This document shows positions 8,190 through 35,904 of a stretch of 64,000 nt of DNA, in pieces. The position numbers and the translations under genes are program-made. Within the stretch, counting starts at the first letter, position 1. The number at the start of each line of letters is the position of its first letter. Source of the DNA: Candidatus Auribacterota bacterium (GTDB taxonomy: Bacteria; Auribacterota; Ancaeobacteria; Ancaeobacterales; Ancaeobacteraceae); the NCBI GenBank assembly GCA_022711655.1, contig JAKLEM010000001.1, positions 33,727 through 97,726 on the forward strand. Reading direction: 5' to 3'. The notes under the pieces are model-generated. The model was given only the letters and a program-made list of their open reading frames with translations. It was not told the origin of the DNA and did no database searches.

Positions 8190-8462
8190 CATATATGAAA
8201 AAGACAGGAGGATCCGGCTATGAGCGGCGGCGTTCTCTCATCCTGCGACGCGGTCCTGCGCAAGGGAATGCGTGATTCCGGATGACCGCCTGCATGGGGC
8301 CTTCTTCTGCGGCTGTTGTCTTACTGTTCACATTCTCGGAAAGTTCAGGGTCGATGGCGAGATAATCGCGTTAATTATGTTTGCCTGATCCATTTTTCGT
8401 TAGACATGCGCCGGGAATTTGTGTAGCATTTAGCCAACAGTAAAAAAATAAGGAGGTGTTGT

Positions 8463-8843
8463 ATGAAGAAAGTATTGGCAGTGGTGATAGCGGTTGCGTT
8501 TGTGGCCGGGTATTCCGGTATTGTCTTTGCCGCCTGCGGTAGCTGCGGGATGGGCAAGGCCGAATCGAAAGTTAACAAGGGCCTCAAGAAGGCCGGCAAG
8601 ACGGTCGCCGGCGCCGGTGAGACCACGGGCAAGGTTGCGGGAGGCGCGCTGAAAGAGGGCGGCGTTATCGTCGAGGGCGCGGGGAAGACGACCGGCGAGA
8701 TCGTTGAAGGGGCGGCAAAGACGGCGACGGAAGTCGGAAAAGGAGCAGCAGACAGCACCGGCAAGATCGTCGAAGGAGCAGGCGTTTCATCGCAGGAGAT
8801 CGTCGGCGATGCGGTGAAGAACGTCGAAGGGAAGAAAGAATAA
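8463..8843 (+). CDS. Small secreted Cys-containing protein with 11-residue Gly-rich repeats (paralog 1 of 4)
   Basis: Signal peptide MKKVLAVVIAVAFVAGYSGIVFA, a CGSCG motif, then seven clean 11-mers (GAGKTTGEIVE type). AAGGAGG RBS. Confidence 0.6.
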   Translation: MKKVLAVVIAVAFVAGYSGIVFAACGSCGMGKAESKVNKGLKKAGKTVAGAGETTGKVAGGALKEGGVIVEGAGKTTGEIVEGAAKTATEVGKGAADSTGKIVEGAGVSSQEIVGDAVKNVEGKKE

Positions 8844-8969
8844 ACGTCTGAAAAAATGCGCTCTCCTGTTTCGCAGCATTCGTGCGATGACGGGGAAGCA
8901 AAATAAAACTTTACATTTTTTCAGGTTTCGGTAATAATCTACTCGAAAACAAACAAAAAGGAGGCTGTT

Positions 8970-9353
8970 ATGAAAAAGGTTCTTGCTTTCCTTGTGGTGG
9001 CGTTGTGCGTCGTTGGCGTGGCGGGGATTTGTTTGGCTGGTGGCGATGAAAGGCCGGTAAAGGCAGTGGAGCCTACCGTTCAGTGCGGGCACAACGACGG
9101 TACCTGCGGCGGTGAAGGTTGCTGTCACATTCATGCCAAAGGCGGACAGCATGACAGCAGCCATGGCCAGGCAATGGAACAGCAGTGCGGGGTGTGCGGG
9201 AAAAATCATGGGACCGCTCTGTTGGATGGAGCGTGTTTAATGCATAATCTCGGCTGCTTTGGTACGCAGTTGGGTAACGCCGCTCAGACAACAGTTTGCT
9301 GTGTGTTGGGATTTTTCAAGGATGCCGGGCGGTTGTGGGGATTGTTGGGATAA
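8970..9353 (+). CDS. Small secreted Cys/His-rich protein (paralog 2 of 4)
   Basis: Signal peptide MKKVLAFLVVALCVVGVAGICLA. His/Cys-rich segment CGHNDGTCGGEGCCHIHAKGGQHDSSHGQ. Shares a CC[VL]xGFFK[DE]xG motif with paralogs 3 and 4. Own TTTACA-17-AATAAT promoter and AAGGAGG RBS. Confidence 0.6.
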   Translation: MKKVLAFLVVALCVVGVAGICLAGGDERPVKAVEPTVQCGHNDGTCGGEGCCHIHAKGGQHDSSHGQAMEQQCGVCGKNHGTALLDGACLMHNLGCFGTQLGNAAQTTVCCVLGFFKDAGRLWGLLG

Positions 9354-9451
9354 GGCGCTTTCGCCCGCCTGATGTACCTGTCGAGTAATAGTAGTCGTGA
9401 AGAAGGAAACAAAGTGACCGGGTAAGAAAAACCAAATCAAGGAGGAGTTGG

Positions 9452-10183
9452 ATGAAAAGGTTTCTTGCGTTGTTCGTAGTAGCGTTGTGCGTTTTTAGTA
9501 TGGCAAAGGTTGTTTTGGCCGGTGGCGGAGAAGTTGCGGCTAAGGAGTGCGGCGTTAAGGCTGCTGAGTGCGGTCCGTGCGCGAGCTGCGGACAGTGCCA
9601 TAAGAGCATCCCTTATTCTGAGCCGAAAATGAACGAGAACCTTGCCGGGATGGGAACAGCGACAAAGAATGCCGGCGAGACGTTTGGTTGCTGCGTGTGG
9701 GGTTTCTTTAAGGAATGCGGAACGATCATCGAAGGCGCCGGCAAGACGACGGGCGAGATAGCGGTTGGCGCCGGCAAGACCCTTGGCTGCATGATGAAGG
9801 GCGCAGCTGATCAGACCGGCAGGATGGGCGTTGGCGCTGGTGAGTCTCTCGAAGGCGTCGGCAAGCAGACAGGTGATATCACAACGGCTTCCGGAAAGAA
9901 CCTGGCATGCCATGCGAAAGGCGCTGCAGACACGACCGGCCGTATTTGTGAAGGTGCCGGCGCATCGCTTGAAGGCGCCGGGAAGAACATCGGCGAAATG
10001 GCGACCGGCAGCGGGAAGAACAGCGGCGTGCACACCAAGGGCGCGGCTGACACGGCCGGCCGTATCGTGACGGGCGCTGGCGAGACGACAGAAGAGATCG
10101 TCGAGAAGACCGGCGGCGCGATCATGGGCCAAGGCGAAGCGGCCGCCGTCGAGACGACCGAAGCGAAACCCGAGACGAAGTAA
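9452..10183 (+). CDS. Secreted Cys-rich 11-mer/40-mer repeat protein (paralog 3 of 4)
   Basis: Signal peptide. CGPCASCGQC cluster and a GCCVWGFFKECG motif. Tandem GAGKTTGEI / KGAADTTGRI repeats with a ~40-residue higher-order period. Confidence 0.6.
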   Translation: MKRFLALFVVALCVFSMAKVVLAGGGEVAAKECGVKAAECGPCASCGQCHKSIPYSEPKMNENLAGMGTATKNAGETFGCCVWGFFKECGTIIEGAGKTTGEIAVGAGKTLGCMMKGAADQTGRMGVGAGESLEGVGKQTGDITTASGKNLACHAKGAADTTGRICEGAGASLEGAGKNIGEMATGSGKNSGVHTKGAADTAGRIVTGAGETTEEIVEKTGGAIMGQGEAAAVETTEAKPETK

Positions 10184-10195
10184 GCGGAGGAATTC

Positions 10196-10654
10196 ATGAA
10201 GAAGCTTGTTGCTGTTATTGTGTCGGTTCTTGTCGTAGCCGGGATGATCGGCACGGCGTGTGCGGGCGGATACGAAAAGAAGGCCGTAAAGAGAAAGATG
10301 CCCGTCACAAAGGCGCCGGTTGAGCAACCTGCGGCGGAAGAACAACAGTCGGGAAGCGTCGTGTACGACGAGAAAGACATGAACAAAAACCTCGGCGGGG
10401 CAGGAGAAACGACAGTCAATGCCGGCAAGACGACCGGCGATGCCTTTACCGGTTTCATGAAAGAGACCGGGACGGTCGTCGAAGGCATGGGCAAAACGAC
10501 CGGTGATGTTACGGTCGGCGCGGCGAAGACGGCAGGCGAGTGCGTCAAAGGTTTTTTTGACAGCGCGGGCCGCATGCTCTTTGGCGCTGGAGAGTCGTCC
10601 GTCAAGGTTGCCGATAACAGCGGCAAGATCGTTGCGGGAGAAGAAGGTAAGTAA
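10196..10654 (+). CDS. Small secreted repeat protein (paralog 4 of 4)
   Basis: Signal peptide MKKLVAVIVSVLVVAGMIGTACA. GKTTGD repeats and a GECVKGFFDSAGR motif. Starts 13 nt after paralog 3 with a GGAGG RBS. Confidence 0.6.
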   Translation: MKKLVAVIVSVLVVAGMIGTACAGGYEKKAVKRKMPVTKAPVEQPAAEEQQSGSVVYDEKDMNKNLGGAGETTVNAGKTTGDAFTGFMKETGTVVEGMGKTTGDVTVGAAKTAGECVKGFFDSAGRMLFGAGESSVKVADNSGKIVAGEEGK

Positions 10655-10670
10655 GTTACAGCATAGACGC

Positions 10671-10718
10671 AGAAGCCTGTATCGTTCGATTTGAGCGATA
10701 CAGGCTTTCTGTCTTTAT
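10671..10718 (+). terminator. Rho-independent terminator after the secreted-protein array
   Basis: AGAAGCCTGTATCG ... CGATACAGGCTTTCT hairpin followed by a T-rich tract. Confidence 0.6.
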
Positions 10719-10741: not shown

Positions 10742-10770
10742 TTGACAAAAAAAAGGTTTTGCCCTATAAT
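10742..10770 (+). promoter_or_regulatory. Near-consensus sigma-70 promoter (TTGACA-17-TATAAT)
   Basis: cTTGACAaaaaaaaggttttgcccTATAAT, directly upstream of the structured RNA. Confidence 0.6.
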
Positions 10771-10776
10771 AACACT

Positions 10777-10968
10777 AGAGCCGATAAAGGCAAACCATAT
10801 GAAAGTATGGGGCGCAAAGCCGCAAGCCTAAATCGAGCCGGCGTAGAAGTGCGGTAGATACAGCACGGATGGATAATCCGAGCGATCATACCGGGATCGG
10901 CGCGATACGGTAGTTGGGCTGCCGAAGCGAGAGGCCTGAAGCCTCACGACACCTTTAATCGGCTCTTT
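10777..10968 (+). ncRNA. ssrS: Candidate 6S RNA (SsrS-like), ~190 nt
   Basis: It starts ~7 nt after the -10 box. The 5' AGAGCCGAUAAAGG pairs with the 3' CCUUUAAUCGGCUCU, followed by a U-tract. Internal segments resemble E. coli 6S: GAGCCGAUA..CCAUAUGAAAGUAUGGGGCGC against GAGCCGAUAUUUCAUACCACAAGAAUGUGGCGC, and a 3' CACGACAC. It sits upstream of the folate gene folE, much as ssrS is linked to folate genes in other bacteria. Confidence 0.55.
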
Positions 10969-11079
10969 TTATTTCCTGCAAGGCGAAGTGACTCGCCTTT
11001 TACTTTTCCGTGATACAGCGAATCGTTTGTTAAGTTATTGTACAACAGCGTATTGTAAATACTCACATAGCGGGGTTAC

Positions 11080-11634: not shown

Positions 11635-12606
11635 CTAAAACCACTTCTTTTTCTTGAAGATCGCAAGGCTGATCAGCGCGATCACTCCCATCGCTCCCAG
11701 GATCGTATAGAACCCGTGCCGCCACTCCAGCTCGGGCGGCAGATGCCGTACGTTCATCCCATAGATCCCGCTGAGCAGCGTCAGCGGCATGATAACCGTC
11801 GTTATGACCGTCAGCGTCTTGACGATCTGATTAGTCTTATGCGAGATCAGCGACAGCTGCAGGTCCTGCGTGCTGAGCACGATATCCTTGAACGTGTCTA
11901 TCGTCTCGCAGATGCGGTACAGCCGTTCATGGATATCGTGAAAGTAGATCTTCACTTTAGGCGAGATGACGGAGATATCTTCCCTGGTCAGACGCAGCAC
12001 GCCGTCGCGCAAGGGGGCGATCGTCCTACGCAGGAATAGTATCTCCTTCTTCAGTTTGAAAAGCTCGAGCGAAACGTCGTGCGCCTTTGCCGAGTAGACA
12101 TGCTCCTCGTTCTTATCGATCCTGTCACCGATCGTTTCCAGCAGTGCGACGTAATGGTCGGCGACCAGGCCGAGGATGGTGTACGCCGCGAAATCGGCTC
12201 CCGCGCCAAGCGTTGCGGCCGGGTTCTGTTTGATGATCTCGAACGCCTCGCCGAGCACCGGGAGGTCGTCGCGGTGGACGGTAATGAGGTGCTGTCCGCC
12301 GATAAAGAGGTGCAGCGGGTAGCTCAGCATCTTTTTCTGACGGGCGTCGTAGTCGAATATGGCGAGCGATACGAACACGCAGTCGTCGAGGTTCATCACA
12401 TGCGGCGCAGCACCAGCGGCGAGGCAGTTGCCGATAGCCAAGGGGTGAAAATGGAAGACTTCGTCGAGCATCGCGATCTCGTCGTTGTCGGGCTTCGAGA
12501 AATCGGCCCATACGTGGCTGCCGCTTTGCGCGATCGCGGGCGCTACCATTTCGCGCGGGAGGTTGAACGAGATCTTGCCGCTGCTGAACAGGACTGTCGT
12601 TATCAT
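11635..12606 (-). CDS. corA: Magnesium/cobalt transporter CorA
   Basis: Two C-terminal TM helices with the YGMN motif (GIYGMNVRHLPE). Start re-derived at MITTV (12606), overlapping the upstream ATP-grasp stop by 4 nt. Confidence 0.85.
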   Translation of the reverse strand: MITTVLFSSGKISFNLPREMVAPAIAQSGSHVWADFSKPDNDEIAMLDEVFHFHPLAIGNCLAAGAAPHVMNLDDCVFVSLAIFDYDARQKKMLSYPLHLFIGGQHLITVHRDDLPVLGEAFEIIKQNPAATLGAGADFAAYTILGLVADHYVALLETIGDRIDKNEEHVYSAKAHDVSLELFKLKKEILFLRRTIAPLRDGVLRLTREDISVISPKVKIYFHDIHERLYRICETIDTFKDIVLSTQDLQLSLISHKTNQIVKTLTVITTVIMPLTLLSGIYGMNVRHLPPELEWRHGFYTILGAMGVIALISLAIFKKKKWF

Positions 12607-13517
12607 TTTTTTGCTTCTTTCTGCGGAAGCAGCGCGTATACGTGAGAGATGATGCACCCTATGAACGTCCGGACGATGTCGTCCGGTACGCCGGTCGCGA
12701 ACACCGATTTCAGCCGCATGTCGCACGGGTCATTGACGTAGTCGACGCAGACGAATTGTCCTCGGACAGATTTGCATATCTCCGTCGAAAAGAAATCGAG
12801 TTTACAGACGTCTGCGATCTTGCGGACGATGACATGCAGCCGCTCGAGCTTATACTGCGCTTCCTGCTCGGCTGTGACCGGCTCGTAAATATGCGTCCGG
12901 TCGTCCCACCAGCAAATGACGGTCTTGCCGCAGCAGAAAAAGACGCGGAACCACGCCCTTTTCCCGTCGACATCGGCGGGGACGATCTGCTCCTGAAGGA
13001 GATATTTGTCGCTGCCGTACTGTTTGCGAGTCTCTATGACGTCGTGCAGGGTCTCTGCCCCGACGACGACGCCGGTCCCGCCGCCGCCGTTCGCCGGCTT
13101 GATGATGAATGGCCTGCCGAGTCCTTCGAGCTCGGTTATCTTGAGGATCGGTTCTTTTTCATACGGCGAGAGGATAACGGTATACGGGACATGTATGCCG
13201 TGCGTCAGGAACTCGAGATGCATCGTGGCTTTGTCCATGGCGCGAAGGCTGTTGCTCAACTCGTTGATCATGCCGGCGTCCATTTTTTTCGCGAGGTCAA
13301 CGAGCGGGAGGAACCGTTCGTCGCTGTCCGATGCCCGGTCGTAGAGTATGCGGAACTGGAGCTCGCCTGCGCGGATCTTCTGAAATGTCTCGTCGATATT
13401 GAACGGGTAGATGAGGTAGGTTGATATCCCCTGCCTGACGCACTCGTTGTTCAGGAGCTGGATGAAATGGTGATCGTATTCCCACTCCCACGCGATCAAG
13501 AGGTCGACGGTGCTCAT
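12603..13517 (-). CDS. ATP-grasp ligase (RimK / glutathione-synthetase-like)
   Basis: FIIKPANGGGGTGVVVG ATP-grasp glycine-rich loop and fold-consistent C-terminus. Translationally coupled (ATGA overlaps) to kamA upstream and corA downstream. Confidence 0.7.
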   Translation of the reverse strand: MSTVDLLIAWEWEYDHHFIQLLNNECVRQGISTYLIYPFNIDETFQKIRAGELQFRILYDRASDSDERFLPLVDLAKKMDAGMINELSNSLRAMDKATMHLEFLTHGIHVPYTVILSPYEKEPILKITELEGLGRPFIIKPANGGGGTGVVVGAETLHDVIETRKQYGSDKYLLQEQIVPADVDGKRAWFRVFFCCGKTVICWWDDRTHIYEPVTAEQEAQYKLERLHVIVRKIADVCKLDFFSTEICKSVRGQFVCVDYVNDPCDMRLKSVFATGVPDDIVRTFIGCIISHVYALLPQKEAKK

Positions 13518-14728
13518 ACGAGGATCTTGGCGTCTTTCGGGGCCGGCACGCCTGCGTCTTTTTCGGTGCCGGGGTCGAAGTACGAGAACTGCTTGTTCTG
13601 GAAATTACGGAGCACCATCTTGCCTTTACGGTACGCGACCACATAGTCGGGGAAGACCGGTATCTTTCCGCCGCCGCCGGGCGCGTCAACGACGAATGTC
13701 GGCACGGCGTATCCGGTGGTGTGTCCGCGAAGCTTTTCGGCGATGCTTATGCCGGCGGAGACGGGCGTCCTGAAGTGTTCTGTCCCGACGGCAAGGTCAC
13801 ACTGGTAGACGTAATAGGGTCGCACCCGGATCTTGATCAGCTCGTGCAGCAGTTTCTTCATTATATAGGTGCTGTCGTTAATCCCTTTCAATAAGACAGT
13901 CTGGCTCCCGAGCGGTATGCCCGCGTCGGCAAGTTTCGTGCACGCCTTGCGCACGTCGTCGGTGATCTCTTTGGGATGCGTGAAGTGTATCGAAAGCCAG
14001 AGCGGATGATATTTCCTGAGCATCTGCACGAGCTCGTCGGTGATCCGCATCGGCAGGGTAACGGGCGCGCGCGTCCCCATGCGCACCATTTCGACGTGCG
14101 GTATCGCGGTGATGTTCTTGAGGATCGATTCGATCTTCTCGTCAGAGAGCATCAGCGGGTCGCCGCCGGATATCAGGACGTCGCGGATCTTTTTATTTGC
14201 CGCTATGTACTTGTACGCATCTTCGAGCCCTTTTTCCGAGAGGATGTCTTCCTTCTTGCCGACCAGCCGCCCCCGCGTGCAGTAGCGGCAATAGGTCGCG
14301 CAGGTGTCCGTGACCATCAACAGGACGCGGTCGGGGTATCGGTGGACCAGCCCGGGGACGGGGGAGTGCGCGTCCTCGCCGCAGGGGTCGACGAGGTCGT
14401 GCGGCGAAACGTCGAGTTCCTCGATCCGGGGTATGATCTGCTTGCGTATCGGGCAGTTCGGGTTCTTCTGGTTGATAAGCGAAAAGAAATAGGGGGTGAT
14501 TCCCATCGGCATCCTCTTTTTTACGCTCTTGATGCCGAGTGTTTCCTGCGGGGTCAGGGGGAGCAGCTTTTCGATCTGATCAAAGCTGGTAATGCGGTTC
14601 TTTAATTGCCACGTCCAATCATTCCACTGTTGCGAGATCGTTTCTTTATCGGAACTACGCGCCGGGTAGTCGTCCTGGCCCATGATGGTTTCATCCTCCT
14701 TGCTTCGGCAACGATTTTTTTCGTTCAT
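13514..14728 (-). CDS. kamA: L-lysine 2,3-aminomutase (radical SAM, PLP)
   Basis: CATYCRYCTR radical-SAM CxxxCxxC motif. Near-colinear similarity to Clostridium KamA (PVPGLVHRYPDRVLL, RPYYVYQCDL, TFVVDAPGGGGK). Both lysine-binding Asp positions (QCDL and VVDAPGGGGK) are retained, which argues for lysine rather than glutamate as substrate. Confidence 0.85.
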   Translation of the reverse strand: MNEKNRCRSKEDETIMGQDDYPARSSDKETISQQWNDWTWQLKNRITSFDQIEKLLPLTPQETLGIKSVKKRMPMGITPYFFSLINQKNPNCPIRKQIIPRIEELDVSPHDLVDPCGEDAHSPVPGLVHRYPDRVLLMVTDTCATYCRYCTRGRLVGKKEDILSEKGLEDAYKYIAANKKIRDVLISGGDPLMLSDEKIESILKNITAIPHVEMVRMGTRAPVTLPMRITDELVQMLRKYHPLWLSIHFTHPKEITDDVRKACTKLADAGIPLGSQTVLLKGINDSTYIMKKLLHELIKIRVRPYYVYQCDLAVGTEHFRTPVSAGISIAEKLRGHTTGYAVPTFVVDAPGGGGKIPVFPDYVVAYRKGKMVLRNFQNKQFSYFDPGTEKDAGVPAPKDAKILV

Positions 14729-29103: not shown

Positions 29104-29262
29104 TCCTTTCATTATCGCCGGAGCAAAGGCGGGACGTGAAGGGAAGCGGGGGAACCCGGTTTTGATCCCTTGAGGATCTTGGGGCGAATATCTAGAAGCA
29201 TCTGCAGCGCGGCAGATAAGGGTTTGTTCAACCCGAGCCCGACAGCTAACCTCGTAAGCTCA
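29104..29262 (+). ncRNA. Candidate cyclic-di-AMP (ydaO/kimA-type) riboswitch
   Basis: It contains GCGGGGGAACCC, UUGGGGCGAAU, ACCCGAGCC and a 3' CUAACCUCGUAAGCU, matching ydaO-class hallmarks. It sits in the leader of a kdp operon, a known c-di-AMP riboswitch target. Confidence 0.55.
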
Positions 29263-29266
29263 TAGT

Positions 29267-29304
29267 GAGAGAATACACCAGGGGACGTGTTCTCTGGTTT
29301 TTTC
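29267..29304 (+). terminator. Intrinsic terminator (riboswitch expression platform)
   Basis: GAGAGAAUACAC-CAGGGGA-GUGUUCUCUGG followed by U6. Confidence 0.55.
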
Positions 29305-29411: not shown

Positions 29412-29504
29412 ATGGATGCGATCTATTGGATTGGCGGCATCATTGCCGTGCTTCTGCTGGTATATCTTTTGATCGCGCTGCTGAAACCGGAGCTGTTCTC
29501 ATGA
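29412..29504 (+). CDS. kdpF: K+-transporting ATPase subunit F
   Basis: 30 aa single-TM peptide [30 protein letters not shown], KdpF-like. The stop overlaps the kdpA ATG (ATGA). Confidence 0.6.
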
Positions 29505-31231
29505 CGTGGAGCGCCATCATCCACATTATCGTCTATATTGCCGCGCTTCTCGTATTCGTGAAGCTGCTCGGCGCCTATATGGCGCGAGTGTACGAAGGGA
29601 GACCTTGCGGCATCGACACGTTTTTTGGCCCGATAGAGCGGATGATCTACCGTGCTGCCGGCATCGCCCCCGAGAGGGGAATGTCGTGGAAGGAATATGC
29701 CGTCGCCATGCTCCTTTTCAATATCGCCGGTATCGTTGTTGTCTATCTGCTGCAGCGTTTCCAGGGGATCCTGCCGGTGAATCCGCAGGCATTGCCGGCG
29801 GTCCCGCCGGATCTCGCGTTCAACACAGCCGTGAGCTTCGCGACGAATACGAACTGGCAGAGCTATGGCGGCGAGACGACGCTGAGCTATCTGACGCAGA
29901 TGCTCGGGCTGACGGTGCAGAACTTCGTTTCGGCGGCGACCGGCATGGCGGTGCTCGTCGCATTGATCCGGGGGTTCGCGCAGAAACAGATCGAAACGAT
30001 CGGGAACTTCTGGGCCGACCTGGTCAGGTCGACGCTGTATATCCTGATTCCCCTGGCGCTCATTCTGGCATGCGCCCTGGTCTCCCAGGGGGTTGTTCAG
30101 ACGTTTAAGCATAGCGAAAAGGTTGCGCTGCTTCAGGCAGGACATGGAATTACAGAACAAGTCCTGCCCCTCGGTCCTGCCGCGTCGCAGGTAGCCATCA
30201 AACAGCTCGGGACGAACGGGGGCGGCTTCTTTAACGTAAATTCGGCCCACCCATTCGAGAACCCGACACCGCTGTCAAACTTTATGGAGATGCTCGCGAT
30301 CCTGCTGATCCCCGCCGCGTTATGCTATACCTTCGGCGTTATGGTCCGCGACAAACGGCAGGGATGGGCGCTCCTGGCGGCGATGCTGATCATCATCGTG
30401 CCCTGCCTCTTTGTCTGTGCGGGTATCGAACAGAAGGGGAATCCGCTGCTGAACGGTCTCGGTGTCGACCAGCGTTGGAGCGCCGCGCAGCCGGGCGGGA
30501 ATATGGAGGGTAAAGAGGCGCGGTTCGGCATCGCCGGTTCCGCCGTCTGGGCGGTAGCGACGACCGCGGCGTCGAACGGGTCGGTCAACGCGATGCACGA
30601 TTCCTTCATGCCGCTCGGCGGACTGATCCCGTTGTGGCTGATGCAGCTGGGCGAGGTGATCTTTGGCGGCGTCGGCTCGGGGCTGTACGGCATGCTTGCC
30701 TTTGTGATCATTGCCGTATTCATTGCCGGGCTCATGATCGGACGCACGCCGGAGTATCTCGGGAAGAAGATCGAAGCCTATGAGATGAAGATGGCGTCCC
30801 TGATCATCCTTATTCCGCCGATACTGGTTCTCATCGGGACGGCCGTTGCGGTCGTTGTCCCGCAGGGGAAGGGGGCAGTACTCAACGCAGGGGCGCACGG
30901 GTTCAGCGAGATCCTGTATGCCTTCTCGTCGGCGGGGAACAATAACGGGAGCGCTTTTGCGGGGTTGGGCGCGAATAACTTCTTTTACAATATTGCTCTC
31001 GGATTAGCGATGTTCATTGCGCGGTATTGGCTGATCATACCGATCCTGGCGATCGCCGGGTCGTTGTCGCGTAAGAGGACGGTGCCGGTCAGCCAGGGGA
31101 CGCTGCCGACGCATACGCCGCTCTTCGTCCTGTTTGTGGTGATGGTGGTGCTGGTCGTCGGGGCCCTGACGTTCTTTCCGGCTCTGGCGCTGGGACCTAT
31201 AGTTGAACATTTAATGCTGTACGGACACTGA
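29501..31231 (+). CDS. kdpA: Potassium-transporting ATPase subunit A
   Basis: [11 protein letters not shown]-terminus and full-length KdpA similarity. The ORF-track N-terminal extension (TTG at 29426) was rejected. Confidence 0.9.
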
Positions 31232-31234
31232 CGA

Positions 31235-33313
<2,079 letters not shown>

Positions 33314-33930: not shown

Positions 33931-35904
33931 ATGGAACGACCAAATCCTGACGAACTGCTTGCACAGATAAAGGCCGAAGACACAGCGCGCGGCAGGCTGA
34001 AGATCTTTTTCGGCGCCGTCGCGGGAGTCGGCAAGACCTACACGATGCTGGAAGCGGCCCGGAGCCGTAAGAAAGAGGGCATCGATATCGTCGTCGGCTA
34101 TGTCGAGACGCATAAGCGCGCCGAGACGGAGGCGCTGCTCGACGGATTGGAGATACTTCCCTCCAAGCCGATCGCCTACAAGAACGTGACGTTGCGCGAA
34201 TTCGACGTCGATGCGGCGATCGCGCGCAAGCCGAAGATCATACTGGTCGACGAGATGGCGCATTCAAACGCCCCCGGCTCGAGGCACCTCAAGCGTTGGC
34301 AGGACATCGAGGAGTTGCTCGATAACGGGATCGACGTCTATACGACGCTCAACGTCCAGCACTGCGAGAGCGCGAACGACGTGGTGGCGCAGATCACCGG
34401 CGTACGCGTCCGCGAAACGATCCCCGATACCTGCATCGAACGGGCGAACGAGCTGGAGCTCGTGGATCTGCCAAGCGAAGAACTGCTCAAACGGTTGAAG
34501 GAAGGAAAGGTCTATCTCGGCGAACAGGCAGAACGCGCGGCGCAGAACTTCTTCCAGCCCGGCAACCTGATAGCCCTGCGGCAGCTCGCGCTGCGCTATA
34601 CGGCGCATAACGTCGACGCCAAGATGCTGTCCTACAAGCAGGCGCACGCAATCTCGAGAGTGTGGAACGTCCGCGACCGCTTTCTCGTGTGCGTCAGCCC
34701 CAACCCGAACGCCGTCCGGCTGATCAGGGCGGGGAAGCGGATCGCTTCCGACCTCGGGGCCGAATGGACCGTCGTCTTTGTCGAGACGCCCTCCGGCCTC
34801 CGGCCCGGTGACCGGAACAGGGTGTCGGACATGCTCCGGTTCGCCGAGACGCTCGGCGCGCGGTCGGCGACACTGAGCGGGCAGGATGTGGCCGAGACGC
34901 TGGTCTCGTATGCGCGCGAGAAGAATGTCACCAAGATCATCGCGGGGAAACCCGGGAAACGGCGCTGGCAGGAGTTCCTTTTCGGATCGTTGATCGACAA
35001 GCTTGCGCATCGCTGCGGCGATATCGACCTTTATCTGTTGAGCGGGGAAGCCGAGACGGAACAGGTGATCCTGCGGCACGCGCCTGTCGACCGGTTCTCA
35101 TGGAAAAACCTGGGCTGGTCGCTCGGCATCGTTACCCTCTGCGCCGCGATCGGCCATGCCTTGTTCCCGTATCTGGCGCCGGTCAACCTGATCATGCCGT
35201 ATCTTCTTGGGACTGCCTGGATCGCGTCCCGGTACGGGCGCAGAATGTCGATCATCACGTCATTCCTGAGCGTCCTCTGTTTCGATTTCTTTTTCGTCCC
35301 GCCGTATTACCGGCTGACGGTGGCGAACGTCGAGTATGTCTTCACCTTCGTTGTCATGCTCGTGGTCGGCTTCACGATCGCGCACCTGACCGGCCAGCTC
35401 AAACGGCAGACGCTCGCCATGCGCCTGCGCGAAGACCGGACGCAGGCGCTGTACGCTCTCAGCCGTAATCTGTCCGAGAGTTCCTATCCGGACGATCTGT
35501 TCAAGATCGCGAGGACGCACATCGTCGAGGTCTTCAAATGCCGAGCGGTCATCCTGGCCCCGGATGCGGGAGGTAAACTGCAGATCAGGTTCGGCGAGAC
35601 CGGGCATGGCGCGCCCACGGAAAGCGAGATCGCCGTCGCGCAATGGGCATACGAGCATAAGAGGCCGGCCGGTAAGGGGACCGATACGTTGCCCGGATCC
35701 AAGGGTGTCTATCTGCCGTGTGCCGGCGCCGAGAAGGTGGTTGGCGTCGTCGGGGTCTTTCCGGAAACGGATGAACAATTCGAAGACCCCGACCAGTATC
35801 ATCTTCTCGAAATATTCGTCAGACAGGCGGCTTTGGCCGTCGAAGGCGCGCAGCTCGCCGCCTCGGCGCTCGAGGCGCAGTCCAAGATAGTCAGCCGCAC
35901 ATGA
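33931..35904 (+). CDS. kdpD: KdpD sensor protein, N-terminal/USP/TM/GAF portion only (no histidine kinase domain)
   Basis: KdpD-N Walker-A-like GVGKTY motif, a USP-like segment, a four-helix TM block and a GAF-like C-terminus. It ends at 657 aa with no HisKA/HATPase_c. No kdpE is nearby. A tRNA and the convergent rpoN follow. Confidence 0.8.
   Translation: MERPNPDELLAQIKAEDTARGRLKIFFGAVAGVGKTYTMLEAARSRKKEGIDIVVGYVETHKRAETEALLDGLEILPSKPIAYKNVTLREFDVDAAIARKPKIILVDEMAHSNAPGSRHLKRWQDIEELLDNGIDVYTTLNVQHCESANDVVAQITGVRVRETIPDTCIERANELELVDLPSEELLKRLKEGKVYLGEQAERAAQNFFQPGNLIALRQLALRYTAHNVDAKMLSYKQAHAISRVWNVRDRFLVCVSPNPNAVRLIRAGKRIASDLGAEWTVVFVETPSGLRPGDRNRVSDMLRFAETLGARSATLSGQDVAETLVSYAREKNVTKIIAGKPGKRRWQEFLFGSLIDKLAHRCGDIDLYLLSGEAETEQVILRHAPVDRFSWKNLGWSLGIVTLCAAIGHALFPYLAPVNLIMPYLLGTAWIASRYGRRMSIITSFLSVLCFDFFFVPPYYRLTVANVEYVFTFVVMLVVGFTIAHLTGQLKRQTLAMRLREDRTQALYALSRNLSESSYPDDLFKIARTHIVEVFKCRAVILAPDAGGKLQIRFGETGHGAPTESEIAVAQWAYEHKRPAGKGTDTLPGSKGVYLPCAGAEKVVGVVGVFPETDEQFEDPDQYHLLEIFVRQAALAVEGAQLAASALEAQSKIVSRT

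What the first reader, a model, noticed from the sequence alone, without database searches (positions are those of the whole stretch)
8463..10654. Tandem array of four paralogous small secreted Cys/His-rich proteins built from 11-residue Gly-rich repeats
Four consecutive same-strand genes (126, 127, 243 and 152 aa). Each has an MKK-type signal peptide ending in A-x-A-G-G. Each has a Cys-rich N-terminal segment (CGSCG; CGHNDGTCGGEGCCHIH..; CGPCASCGQC). Paralogs 2-4 share a CC[VL]xGFFK[DE]xG-like motif. Each has a variable number of strictly 11-residue repeats (GAGKTTGEIVE / KGAADTTGRI), organised into ~40-residue super-repeats in paralog 3. An 11-mer periodicity is the signature of amphipathic-helix repeat proteins such as LEA proteins, apolipoproteins and synucleins. 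CxxC/His clusters suggest periplasmic metal binding. The array lies divergent to the hypCDE Ni-Fe hydrogenase maturation genes, and the second paralog is conspicuously His-rich, so a role in periplasmic metal (Ni/Cu/Zn) handling or envelope stress is conceivable. I cannot map this repeat family to a named family from sequence memory.
Basis: seen in the sequence. Interest (0 to 1): 0.72.

Follow-up and report, generated by a model that had tools for sequence, protein, structure and literature searches.

The report
Rare secreted 11-residue-repeat protein cassette
Four neighbouring genes encode exported proteins of an undescribed, extremely rare family built from 11-residue helix-type repeats with cysteine/histidine-rich heads; so far it is seen only in a little-known group of uncultured anaerobic bacteria and one of their phages, and its function can only be inferred.

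Summary
The four ORFs are real and sit at the stated coordinates. Each has a GGAGG ribosome-binding site and a 23-residue Sec-type signal peptide. All are under purifying selection (dN/dS 0.09-0.17).

p1, p3 and p4 share an ~88-residue core of eight in-phase 11-mers. p3 adds 40-residue (11+11+11+7) super-repeats. p2 keeps only the first three units and instead has a head with 10 invariant Cys and 6 invariant His.

The hydrophobic moment peaks at 98.2 degrees, the 11/3 helix angle (z 6.5-7.8). AlphaFold2 gives long helices at low confidence.

No Pfam, NCBIfam, PHROGs, PADLOC or PDB match exists. An exhaustive HMMER scan of 1.84 billion representatives found about 12 true relatives.

Relatives form ordered 2-, 4- or 5-gene cassettes in Candidatus Auribacterota-like genomes. 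One homologue sits in a phage replication module.

The hypCDE adjacency is not conserved, so the hydrogenase/nickel link is unsupported.

Best reading: exported proteins that are disordered until they fold into amphipathic helices, coating or buffering the cell envelope, with thiol/imidazole clusters for soft-metal or sulfur binding or cross-linking. Function is inferred, not shown.

A c-di-GMP-I riboswitch unit is conserved immediately 3' of the cassette in three genomes.

The parts
8401..8429 (+). Promoter-like site of the cassette (TAGACA-17-TAGCAT)
   Evidence: Consensus scan. The same block TAGACATGCGCC...TGTAGCATTT is conserved upstream of the p1-like gene in L096, and a TTGGACA-type site is present in L003.
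8463..8843 (+). p1, 126 aa: signal peptide (residues 1-23), CGSCG, then eight in-phase 11-mers (residues 37-124; nt 8571-8834)
   Evidence: ORF and RBS. Periodicity z 5.4-5.6. Moment peak at 98.2 degrees, z 6.9. dN/dS 0.09-0.12 against orthologues. Annotated by NCBI as a hypothetical protein, HRZ86514.
8970..9353 (+). p2, 127 aa: signal peptide, Cys/His-rich head (residues 39-97; 8 of the 10 invariant Cys), then the first three core 11-mers ending LWGLLG (the last two invariant Cys, CC at 110-111, lie in these units); own promoter-like site at 8910-8938
   Evidence: 10/10 mature Cys and 6/7 His are invariant in four orthologues at ~65% identity. dN/dS 0.12-0.16. Exact sequence is NCBI 'hypothetical protein P5287_01725 [bacterium]'.
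9452..10183 (+). p3, 243 aa: signal peptide, Cys cluster CGPCASCGQCH, core 11-mers (residues 60-147; nt 9629-9892), 40-residue super-repeats (from residue ~115 to ~226), C-terminal tail KPETK
   Evidence: lag 40, z 12.3; dN/dS 0.11-0.14. AlphaFold2 helices 57-184 and 194-226, pLDDT 55.
10196..10654 (+). p4, 152 aa: signal peptide, acidic/Pro linker, core of eight 11-mers (residues 62-149; nt 10379-10642); the most widely conserved type
   Evidence: dN/dS 0.13-0.17. AlphaFold2 helical hairpin 59-101/105-146, pLDDT 59. Orthologues P0003, P0007, P0008, P0025-27.
10672..10708 (+). Intrinsic terminator of the cassette (17-bp stem)
   Evidence: An equivalent hairpin lies at the same place in L002 and L096.
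10742..10999 (+). Conserved neighbour, role relative to the cassette unknown: perfect sigma-70 promoter (10742-10770), c-di-GMP-I riboswitch aptamer (10779-10926) with a ~67-nt insertion, terminator-like hairpin (10980-10999)
   Evidence: Rfam RF01051, 67.1 bits against a gathering score of 35. The same unit lies directly 3' of the p4-like gene in L002 and L096 although the next gene differs.

Best explanation
SHOWN:
- The region is a single transcription unit, with a possible internal promoter before p2. It encodes four Sec-exported paralogues of a previously undescribed protein family.
- The paralogue types are old. Each has its own orthologue, in the same gene order, in related genomes.
- p1, p3 and p4 carry a conserved ~88-residue core of eight 11-residue units. 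The consensus is V-x-G-A-G-K-T-T-G-E-I.
- p3 extends the core with 40-residue (11+11+11+7) super-repeats.
- p2 keeps three units and carries a head with 10 invariant Cys and 6 invariant His.

INFERRED FROM SEQUENCE:
- The units form an 11/3 amphipathic alpha-helix with three features. There is a narrow apolar face of small residues (I/V11, A4, T8, V1). There is a K/E stripe (positions 2, 6, 10). Glycines sit at both face boundaries (positions 3, 5, 9, including a GxxxG).
- With three Gly per 11 residues the chains are probably disordered when free. They would fold into long helices or hairpins on a lipid surface or on each other.

MOST LIKELY FUNCTION (INFERENCE):
- After signal-peptide cleavage the proteins stay in the periplasm/envelope of a diderm PVC-group anaerobe. 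There they act together as a surface-coating or buffering layer. This would resemble the way LEA-3, apolipoprotein, perilipin and synuclein repeats work.
- The Cys/His clusters, above all in p2 and in the metallothionein-like 'p1b' of relatives, would bind soft metal ions or sulfur species, or cross-link the coat.
- The adjacency to hypCDE is a lineage-specific accident.
For: Real genes:
- RBS, signal peptides, promoter and terminator.
- dN/dS of 0.09-0.17 for all four types while dS is saturated.
- NCBI annotates the same ORFs.

Old, ordered cassette:
- L002/L004 carry p1b-p2-p3-p4 and L096/L099 carry p1-p1b-p2-p3-p4.
- L003 and Ca. Ancaeobacter (L008-L011) carry a two-gene array: a p1-like gene followed by a p3/p4-like one (P0003 in L003, p4-like P0008 in L008-L011).
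- Sources.

Repeat and helix signature:
- Lag 11/22/33 z about 5-6, and lag 40 z 12.3.
- Moment maximum at 98.18 degrees, z 6.5-7.8, with beta-type angles near zero, plus the position-specific profile.
- 7-residue inserts preserve helical phase.
- AlphaFold2 models are all-helical.

Cys/His constraint.

Rarity and novelty:
- 3 hits in 5.8 billion proteins with p3.
- 19 hits, about 12 of them true, in 1.84 billion representatives.
- None in GTDB representative genomes or IMG/VR, and one JGI locus.
- No Pfam family is shared by 16 members.

Lineage:
- P0008 is named Candidatus Ancaeobacter aquaticus, phylum Auribacterota, PVC group.
- Four syntenic neighbours are 35-59% identical to the window's.
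- Auribacterota are inferred to be anaerobic fermenters that produce H2 and sulfide, and are drawn with an outer membrane (PMC9324843).

Other support:
- The unrelated 11-mer proteins picked up by the profile place similar repeats next to envelope-type domains. P0016 has them between a predicted membrane-spanning segment and an OmpA domain. P0014 has them after a PBP-superfamily domain.
- hyp genes are absent from the corresponding position in relatives.
Against: - No experiment or expression data exists.
- AlphaFold2 confidence is low (pLDDT 55-59, pTM 0.23-0.28), so the helical fold rests mainly on periodicity arguments.
- Any 11-periodic pattern gives harmonics. The helix harmonic is the strongest, but that is not proof of a helix.
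- Three Gly per 11 residues is unusual for a stable helix.
- Final location (periplasm, outer membrane, or released) is unknown. No SignalP-type predictor was available.
- Metal or sulfur binding is inferred only from invariant Cys/His. These could equally be disulfides.
- Conserved neighbours give no coherent functional theme.
- The phage homologue is not explained by a housekeeping coat role.
Confidence: 0.4

Rival explanations
1. The proteins would be periplasmic metal handlers functionally tied to NiFe-hydrogenase maturation, for example nickel capture for the hyp system, with the His-rich p2 as the nickel binder.
For: - hypCDE lies divergently upstream in the window.
- p2 has 10 invariant Cys and 6 invariant His.
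- A CorA-family gene lies nearby.
- One related lineage has an ArsR/SmtB metalloregulator upstream.
- From my own recall, untested: the CGVCGxxH of p2 resembles the RxCGxCxxxH nickel motif of hydrogenase large subunits.
Against: - In Ca. Ancaeobacter the same synteny block reaches the array with no hyp genes. In L096/L099 the upstream genes are an RND pump set.
- Hyp proteins are cytoplasmic, while these proteins carry Sec signal peptides.
- The hydrogenases inferred for Auribacterota (Group 3b, 4e, 4g) are cytoplasmic or membrane-bound enzymes (PMC9324843).
- p1 and p4 have almost no Cys or His.
Confidence: 0.07
2. The proteins would be structural envelope or matrix proteins. One option is disulfide- or metal-cross-linked wall proteins, analogous to the cysteine-rich OmcA/OmcB of Chlamydiae, another PVC lineage. 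The other is beta-rich fibres with 22-residue strand-turn-strand units, like curli.
For: - PVC-group host.
- Several co-conserved paralogues in fixed order, as with major and minor subunits.
- Cys at conserved positions inside the repeats.
- Lag-22 similarity is as strong as lag-11.
- A c-di-GMP riboswitch lies next door. In other bacteria, from general knowledge, such riboswitches often accompany matrix genes.
Against: - Hydrophobic moment at beta angles is near zero.
- 7-residue inserts fit helices, not solenoids.
- AlphaFold2 gives helices, although it usually finds curli-type solenoids.
- No Curlin_rep or other amyloid Pfam hit.
- No dedicated secretion or assembly genes are adjacent.
- The riboswitch lies downstream of the array behind a terminator.
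- Sulfidic anoxic habitats disfavour disulfide networks (PMC9324843).
Confidence: 0.15
3. The proteins would be secreted antimicrobial or pore-forming peptides: a multi-peptide bacteriocin-like locus of Gly-rich amphipathic helices.
For: - Small, exported, Gly-rich amphipathic proteins in a multi-paralogue array.
- An NHLP-clan RiPP-precursor-like gene and a TolC/RND set lie nearby in relatives.
Against: - Sec signal peptides rather than double-glycine leaders.
- No C39 peptidase/ABC exporter or immunity gene.
- Strong purifying selection and fixed orthologous order across lineages with saturated dS, unlike fast-evolving toxin loci.
- At 100-220 residues with near-neutral pI, the mature proteins are atypical for such peptides.
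Confidence: 0.06
4. The proteins would be ice-binding, type-I-antifreeze-like proteins. An 11-residue helix repeat would present a flat Thr/Ala face every 16.5 angstroms.
For: - Thr at positions 7/8 and Ala at position 4 recur every 11 residues.
- One host lineage was described from Ace Lake, Antarctica.
Against: - Gly-rich rather than Ala-rich, so a rigid free helix is unlikely.
- The phylum was first reported from deep terrestrial subsurface fluid, so it is not confined to cold water (PMC9324843). The habitats of the other family-bearing samples could not be established.
- The Cys/His heads and p2 are unexplained by this idea.
Confidence: 0.03
5. The ORFs would be spurious, or the true genes would be the long antisense ORFs (9437-10345 and 9811-10626, minus strand).
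For: Long open frames exist on the opposite strand.
Against: - Plus-strand RBSs, signal peptides and terminator.
- dN/dS of 0.09-0.17 in the plus frame.
- Collinear orthologues with in-frame indels.
- The antisense frames are the usual stop-free shadow of GGN/GCN/GAG/AAG/ACN-rich coding sequence.
Confidence: 0.01

Closest known systems
Amphipathic 11-mer repeat proteins: group-3 LEA (Pfam LEA_4), alpha-synuclein, apolipoproteins A-I/A-IV/E and apoLp-III, perilipins
   Same: - 11-residue periodicity with an 11/3-helix amphipathic pattern.
- G/A/T/K/E-rich composition (58-70% of mature p1, p3 and p4).
- Expected disorder-to-helix behaviour on surfaces.
- Unrelated proteins with analogous 11-mers, pulled in by the profile, give sub-threshold hits to Apolipoprotein, ApoLp-III, YtxH and Perilipin.
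   Different: - No sequence homology. There are no Pfam hits, and hhalign against alpha-synuclein gives probability 0.15%.
- Exported by Sec signal peptides, whereas synucleins, perilipins and most group-3 LEA proteins are intracellular (apolipoproteins are themselves secreted).
- Gly at the face boundaries instead of Lys.
- No proline punctuation.
- Cys/His-rich heads.
- Bacterial and phage-borne.
SilE/PcoE-type periplasmic 'metal sponge' proteins (comparison from general knowledge)
   Same: Small, Sec-exported, low-complexity proteins thought to be disordered when free and helical when loaded. Multiple metal-ligand residues.
   Different: - SilE/PcoE use His/Met motifs and lie in silver/copper resistance operons.
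- Here the ligands would be Cys/His.
- No resistance operon is consistently linked.
- No sequence similarity was detected in any library scan.
Chlamydial cysteine-rich envelope proteins OmcA/OmcB (PVC group; comparison from general knowledge)
   Same: Exported Cys-rich envelope proteins in a PVC-lineage bacterium, encoded side by side.
   Different: No sequence similarity. The OmcB fold is not an 11-mer helix repeat. The host here is an anaerobe of sulfidic water, where disulfide networks are unlikely.
Pfam DUF3659 (Gly-rich repeat domain of unknown function)
   Same: It is the best, but sub-threshold, Pfam score for p1.
   Different: The score is 13.3 bits against a 24.8-bit cut-off, and only 2 of 16 family members touch it. 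The family is not a member.

Membership tests
Group-3 LEA (Pfam LEA_4, PF02987) | Match to the family HMM (11-mer of the TAQAAKEKAGE type) | tested here: not met
   No LEA_4 hit for any of the four proteins at E up to 10, nor for any of 16 family members at E up to 5.
Group-3 LEA / synuclein / apolipoprotein class (structural class, not a homologous family) | 11-residue periodicity with an amphipathic 11/3-helix pattern | tested here: met
   Lag-11/22/33 z of 3.4-6.4. Moment maximum at 98.18 degrees, z 6.5-7.8, with charged 2/6/10 and apolar 11/4/8/1 positions. True for p1, p3 and p4 only.
Synuclein (PF01387) | Sequence homology, including the KTKEGV-type repeat | tested here: not met
   No Pfam hit.
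Apolipoprotein A1/A4/E (PF01442) and ApoLp-III (PF07464) | HMM match; proline-punctuated 11/22-mer helices | tested here: not met
   No hit for window proteins. No Pro in mature p1; reading the core sequences shows none in the p3 or p4 cores either.
Pfam DUF3659 (PF12396) | Score at or above the gathering threshold (24.8 bits) | tested here: not met
   p1 scores 13.3 bits, E 0.077. Two of 16 members give weak hits.
Sec/SPase I-exported proteins | N-terminal positively charged n-region, 15-18-residue hydrophobic h-region, small residues at -3/-1 | tested here: met
   Read directly from the sequence. All four have MK[KR] plus a hydrophobic stretch plus VFA|A, CLA|G, VLA|G or ACA|G at residue 23. 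The c-region [SV]FAGG is conserved in homologues. No dedicated predictor (SignalP) was available.
Bacterial lipoproteins (SPase II) | Lipobox [LVI][ASTVI][GAS]C with Cys at +1, conserved among orthologues | tested here: inconclusive
   - Window p1 has VFAAC, and L003 p1-like has FAGC.
- L096 and L008 p1-like proteins have no Cys at +1 (SFAGDASC, VFAGSSSC).
- p2-p4 lack a lipobox.
- Pfam LPAM_1 hits are below threshold.
c-type cytochromes | Conserved CXXCH haem-attachment motif | tested here: not met
   p3 (CGQCH), P0001 (CGVCH) and P0002 (CGSCH) have one. The p3 orthologue P0005 has no Cys there, and P0003 has no His. The only PDB hit is a weak match (E 0.0019) to a tetrahaem cytochrome, spanning the signal peptide and N-terminal region.
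Known anti-phage defence or phage protein families | Match to PADLOC or PHROGs models | tested here: not met
   No PADLOC hit. No PHROG below E 0.05. No tblastn hit of the phage homologue in 50,697 phage records.
Hydrogenase-maturation-linked accessory genes | Conserved genomic linkage to hyp/hydrogenase genes | tested here: not met
   hypCDE is adjacent only in the window lineage.

The most novel reading that the evidence does not exclude
The cassette would be a new kind of exported thiol-sponge coat. Hendecad (11/3) helices would assemble on the periplasmic face of the envelope, and their Cys/His heads would carry or buffer sulfur species (polysulfide/S0) or soft metals. The host would be a sulfide-producing PVC anaerobe whose route for bringing sulfur into the cell is unknown. 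Its phages would encode a copy to manipulate this layer during infection.
Probability: 0.12. Interest if true: 0.7.

Novelty: new variant of a known kind. Interest (0 to 1): 0.45.

Why it matters
If the reading is right, this is a bacterial, Sec-exported counterpart of the LEA/apolipoprotein/synuclein type of surface-binding 11-mer repeat. It is combined with invariant Cys/His clusters and found in a candidate phylum (Auribacterota) whose envelope biology is unknown.

It gives a defined, tiny family of about a dozen clusters, with an HMM, orthologue series and a phage copy. That makes it tractable for simple biochemistry: CD with lipids, and anaerobic metal or sulfane-sulfur analysis.

It also removes a tempting but false link to hydrogenase maturation.

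The c-di-GMP-I riboswitch unit conserved right after the cassette, in front of different genes (folE, or an NHLP-clan peptide gene), is a separate small puzzle worth a specialist's look.

It does not by itself open a long-standing question.

Tried and rejected
- Pfam, NCBIfam, PHROGs and PADLOC scans of all four proteins and of 16 family members gave nothing above threshold and no consistent weak hit.
- PDB sequence search with the family profile and with p2 gave only a weak match, over the signal peptide and N-terminal region, to a tetrahaem cytochrome.
- Foldseek of the p4 model against the PDB gave no match. The model is low-confidence, so further fold searches were not run.
- The GTDB representative-genome scan and the IMG/VR scan with the family alignment gave no relatives.
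- An enolase scan of GTDB for taxonomy was uninformative, with at most 74% identity across many phyla. Taxonomy came instead from the NCBI name of P0008 and from synteny.
- The haem-binding idea for p3 (CXXCH) was rejected because the motif is missing in orthologues.
- The lipoprotein idea for p1 was left inconclusive.
- A riboswitch or leader upstream of the array was not found at relaxed threshold.
- Literature searches for the sample accessions and for periplasmic 11-residue repeats found nothing relevant.
- Ice-binding, bacteriocin and curli-like readings were considered and ranked low (see rivals).
Full report
**Observation**

The window holds four consecutive plus-strand ORFs at exactly the stated coordinates: p1 8463-8843 (126 aa), p2 8970-9353 (127 aa), p3 9452-10183 (243 aa) and p4 10196-10654 (152 aa). 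Each is preceded by a GGAGG-type ribosome-binding site.

A sigma-70-like site (TAGACA-17-TAGCAT, 8401-8429) lies upstream of p1, and a 17-bp-stem terminator (10672-10708) follows p4. The promoter block is conserved upstream of the p1-like genes of related contigs.

All four proteins begin with a 23-residue signal peptide: MK[KR], a hydrophobic core, and small residues at -3/-1.

BLASTP shows p1, p3 and p4 to be clear paralogues (E 3e-23 to 5e-33). p2 matches p3 at E 1e-16.

A family HMM built without p2 still finds it at 2e-13, and finds no further member elsewhere in the window. Alignment shows that the last ~36 residues of p2 are the first three 11-mers of the shared core, including CCVxGFFK.

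**Repeats**

Self-similarity is significant against shuffles at lags 11, 22 and 33 in p1, p3 and p4 (z about 3.4-6.4). p3 has a dominant 40-residue super-repeat (z 12.3), made of 11+11+11+7 residues. p2 has no such periodicity.

At DNA level only a 33-bp, 1.9-copy repeat is detectable, so the repeats are ancient.

- p2 is not an 11-mer repeat protein by itself.
- The p3 repeats are not strictly 11-mers.
- p4 has no Cys-rich head (one Cys in the mature chain).
- p1 lacks the A-G-G ending.

**Are they genes?**

Codon alignments against orthologues give dN/dS of 0.09-0.17 for all four types, with synonymous sites near saturation. NCBI annotates the same ORFs as hypothetical proteins (HRZ86514-17, locus tags P5287_01720-01735).

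The long antisense ORFs are the stop-free shadow of Gly/Ala/Glu/Lys/Thr-rich coding sequence.

**Distribution**

The family is extremely rare:
- p3 found three relatives among 5.8 billion clustered proteins.
- A profile run with HMMER over 1.84 billion representatives found 19 hits. About 12 are true members. The rest are unrelated proteins with analogous xGAADxTGxVV 11-mers.
- In those unrelated proteins the repeats lie next to envelope-type domains. One has them between a predicted membrane-spanning segment and an OmpA domain. Another has them after a PBP-superfamily domain.
- No relative was found in 185,579 GTDB representative genomes or in IMG/VR.
- One JGI locus was found.

The genomic contexts show a conserved, ordered cassette:

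| Locus | Genes in order |
|---|---|
| L002 / L004 | (p1b)-p2-p3-p4 |
| L096 / L099 | p1-p1b-p2-p3-p4; p1b is a metallothionein-like, very Cys-rich type |
| L003 | p1-like, then a p3/p4-like gene (P0003), followed by folE |
| L008-L011 | p1-like then p4-like |

Each paralogue type thus has its own orthologues. The duplications predate the divergence of these lineages, and the proteins probably work together.

**Host lineage**

P0008 (L008-L011) is named by NCBI as Candidatus Ancaeobacter aquaticus, phylum Candidatus Auribacterota, PVC group.

Its contigs share four syntenic genes with the window immediately upstream of the array:

| Gene | Identity to window |
|---|---|
| TPR protein | 35% |
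| HhH-GPD | 57% |
| Nitroreductase | 59% |
| CehA/McbA-like metallohydrolase | 46% |

The window's unclassified MAG is therefore most likely a relative. Auribacterota are inferred to be anaerobic fermenters that produce H2 and sulfide. They are drawn with an outer membrane (PMC9324843).

**The hydrogenase link**

In the Ancaeobacter contigs the CehA-like gene is followed directly by the array, with no hypCDE in between.

In the L096/L099 lineage the upstream genes are an ArsR/SmtB-family regulator, a TolC-like protein and a generic RND permease.

The hyp adjacency is therefore lineage-specific. Hyp proteins are cytoplasmic, whereas these proteins are exported.

**Structure class**

I pooled the 8-unit cores of 15 family members. 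The 11-mer profile is:

| Position | Residues |
|---|---|
| 1 | V/A/L |
| 2 | K/V/E |
| 3 | G (67%) |
| 4 | A |
| 5 | G/L/A |
| 6 | K/D/E |
| 7 | T/S |
| 8 | T/A |
| 9 | G (69%) |
| 10 | E/K |
| 11 | I/V/M |

The hydrophobic moment over the whole core is maximal at exactly 98.18 degrees, i.e. 11 residues per 3 turns (z 6.5-7.8). It is near zero at beta-strand angles.

On an 11/3 wheel this gives three features:
- A narrow apolar face: I11-A4-T8-V1.
- A charged stripe at positions 2, 6 and 10.
- Glycines at both boundaries, including a G5xxxG9 motif.

The 7-residue inserts in p3 preserve helical phase, which fits helices and not solenoids.

AlphaFold2 with a 13-sequence alignment predicts a helical hairpin for p4 (59-101/105-146). 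For p3 it predicts a 128-residue helix plus a second one. Confidence is low in both (pLDDT 59 and 55).

Foldseek found no PDB match. I infer chains that are disordered when free and helical on a lipid surface or partner. This is the behaviour of LEA-3, apolipoprotein, perilipin and synuclein repeats.

**Not a member of those families**

No Pfam, NCBIfam, PHROGs or PADLOC model is matched above threshold. No weak hit is shared across 16 members. The best score is DUF3659, at 13.3 bits against a 24.8-bit cut-off.

hhalign against alpha-synuclein gives probability 0.15%. PDB sequence searches give nothing meaningful.

**Cys/His heads**

In p2-type proteins all 10 mature Cys and 6 of 7 His are invariant across four orthologues that are only ~65% identical overall. 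The motifs are:
- CGHxDGxCGGxGCCHxH
- SSHG
- CGVCxxxHG
- DGACxMHNLGC
- VCC

p1b-type proteins carry about a dozen Cys in CxC/CxxC arrays.

A CXXCH motif in p3 is not conserved in the orthologues P0005 or P0003, so haem attachment is unlikely. The signal peptides have no twin-arginine motif, and pre-assembled Fe-S proteins are normally exported by the Tat route (general knowledge), which argues against pre-assembled Fe-S clusters.

The remaining options are soft-metal or sulfur binding, or cross-links. All are untested.

Many homologues end in a conserved [KR/Q]PE[TIVM]K tail, as does p3 here. I cannot explain it.

**Phage copy**

P0010 (163 aa) is collinear with the core. It is 52% identical to p1 over 83 residues (E 4e-20).

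It lies between a late-sigma-factor gene and a primase gene on contigs L012-L015. The same contigs carry a UvsX-like recombinase, a gp32-like SSB, DnaB- and UvsW-like helicases, RNR and endonuclease I.

These contigs come from the same run series (SRR309498xx) as the bacterial locus L004. No known phage record carries a homologue.

A phage-borne exported copy suggests that the protein acts on the host envelope. The direction of that effect is unknown.

**Conserved neighbour**

A c-di-GMP-I riboswitch (RF01051, 67 bits) lies at 10779-10926. A perfect sigma-70 promoter lies just upstream of it and a terminator-like hairpin just downstream. The whole unit sits directly after the cassette terminator.

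The same unit, including a conserved ~67-nt insertion, follows the p4-like gene in L002 and L096. The next gene differs: folE in the window, and an Os1348-family NHLP-clan peptide gene in the other two.

It sits behind a terminator and cannot simply control the cassette. Its persistent linkage is unexplained.

**Verdict**

The amphipathic 11-mer interpretation is supported, and the hydrogenase link is not.

This is a genuine, undescribed, lineage-restricted family. Most likely it is an exported, surface-binding helical-repeat coat or buffer with thiol/imidazole clusters.

My confidence differs by layer:
- About 0.9 that this is a real, new family.
- About 0.65 that the repeats form amphipathic helices.
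- About 0.4 for the full coat-plus-thiol-cluster mechanism.

Noticed in passing
window 10742-10999 (+); L002 2111-2260; L096 8441-8589: A c-di-GMP-I riboswitch with its own consensus promoter, a conserved ~67-nt insertion and a terminator-like hairpin lies immediately 3' of the cassette in three genomes. It stays ~85-90% identical at nucleotide level although the coding dS is saturated. The downstream gene differs: folE in the window, an NHLP-clan peptide gene in the others.
   Followed up: partly
L012 10001-10492 (also L013-L015): A homologue of the family (P0010, 52% identical to p1 over the core) is encoded in a phage replication module. It sits between a late-sigma-factor gene and a primase gene. 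The contigs come from the same sequencing-run series as a bacterial locus carrying the cassette.
   Followed up: partly
window 10163-10183 (p3 C-terminus); L096 and L002 paralogues: A conserved C-terminal tail [KRQ]PE[TIVM]K (or AETK/VETK) ends four of the five paralogues in L096, three in L002/L004, and p3 in the window. It matches no sorting signal I know.
   Followed up: no
window 29118-29276 (+): A c-di-AMP (ydaO/yuaA-type) riboswitch lies directly upstream of kdpA (29426-31231), kdpB (31235-33313) and, further on, kdpD (33931-35904).
   Followed up: no
window 11635-14728 (-): Downstream of folE lies a minus-strand run of genes: CorA-family transporter, ATP-grasp/RimK-like ligase, lysine-2,3-aminomutase-like radical SAM enzyme and a GNAT acetyltransferase. 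From general knowledge this is possibly an ablAB-like N-acetyl-beta-lysine osmolyte cluster.
   Followed up: no
L099 11044-11256; L096 8807-9112; L001 1963-2178: In relatives, a 70-aa Os1348-family NHLP-clan (Pfam Frankia_peptide) precursor-like gene follows the riboswitch. Next to it lies a ~1,900-aa class III cyclase/TPR protein on the opposite strand.
   Followed up: no
window 9186-9212 (p2 residues 73-81, CGVCGKNHG): The invariant CGVCxxxH of p2-type proteins resembles the RxCGxCxxxH nickel-site motif of NiFe-hydrogenase large subunits. This is recalled from memory, is probably a chance resemblance in a Cys-rich protein, and was not tested.
   Followed up: no
window 9437-10345 (-) and 9811-10626 (-): Long antisense ORFs (302 and 271 aa) overlap p3 and p4. 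Equivalent shadow ORFs occur in L096. They are explained by stop-poor reverse complements of GGN/GCN/GAG/AAG/ACN codons.
   Followed up: yes
P0013, P0014, P0016, P0017, P0020: Unrelated proteins from other organisms carry analogous 11-mers (xGAADxTGxVV). Examples include DUF937-repeat-OmpA and PBP-repeat fusions, each with a predicted membrane-spanning segment read from the sequence. No Pfam family covers these repeats.
   Followed up: partly
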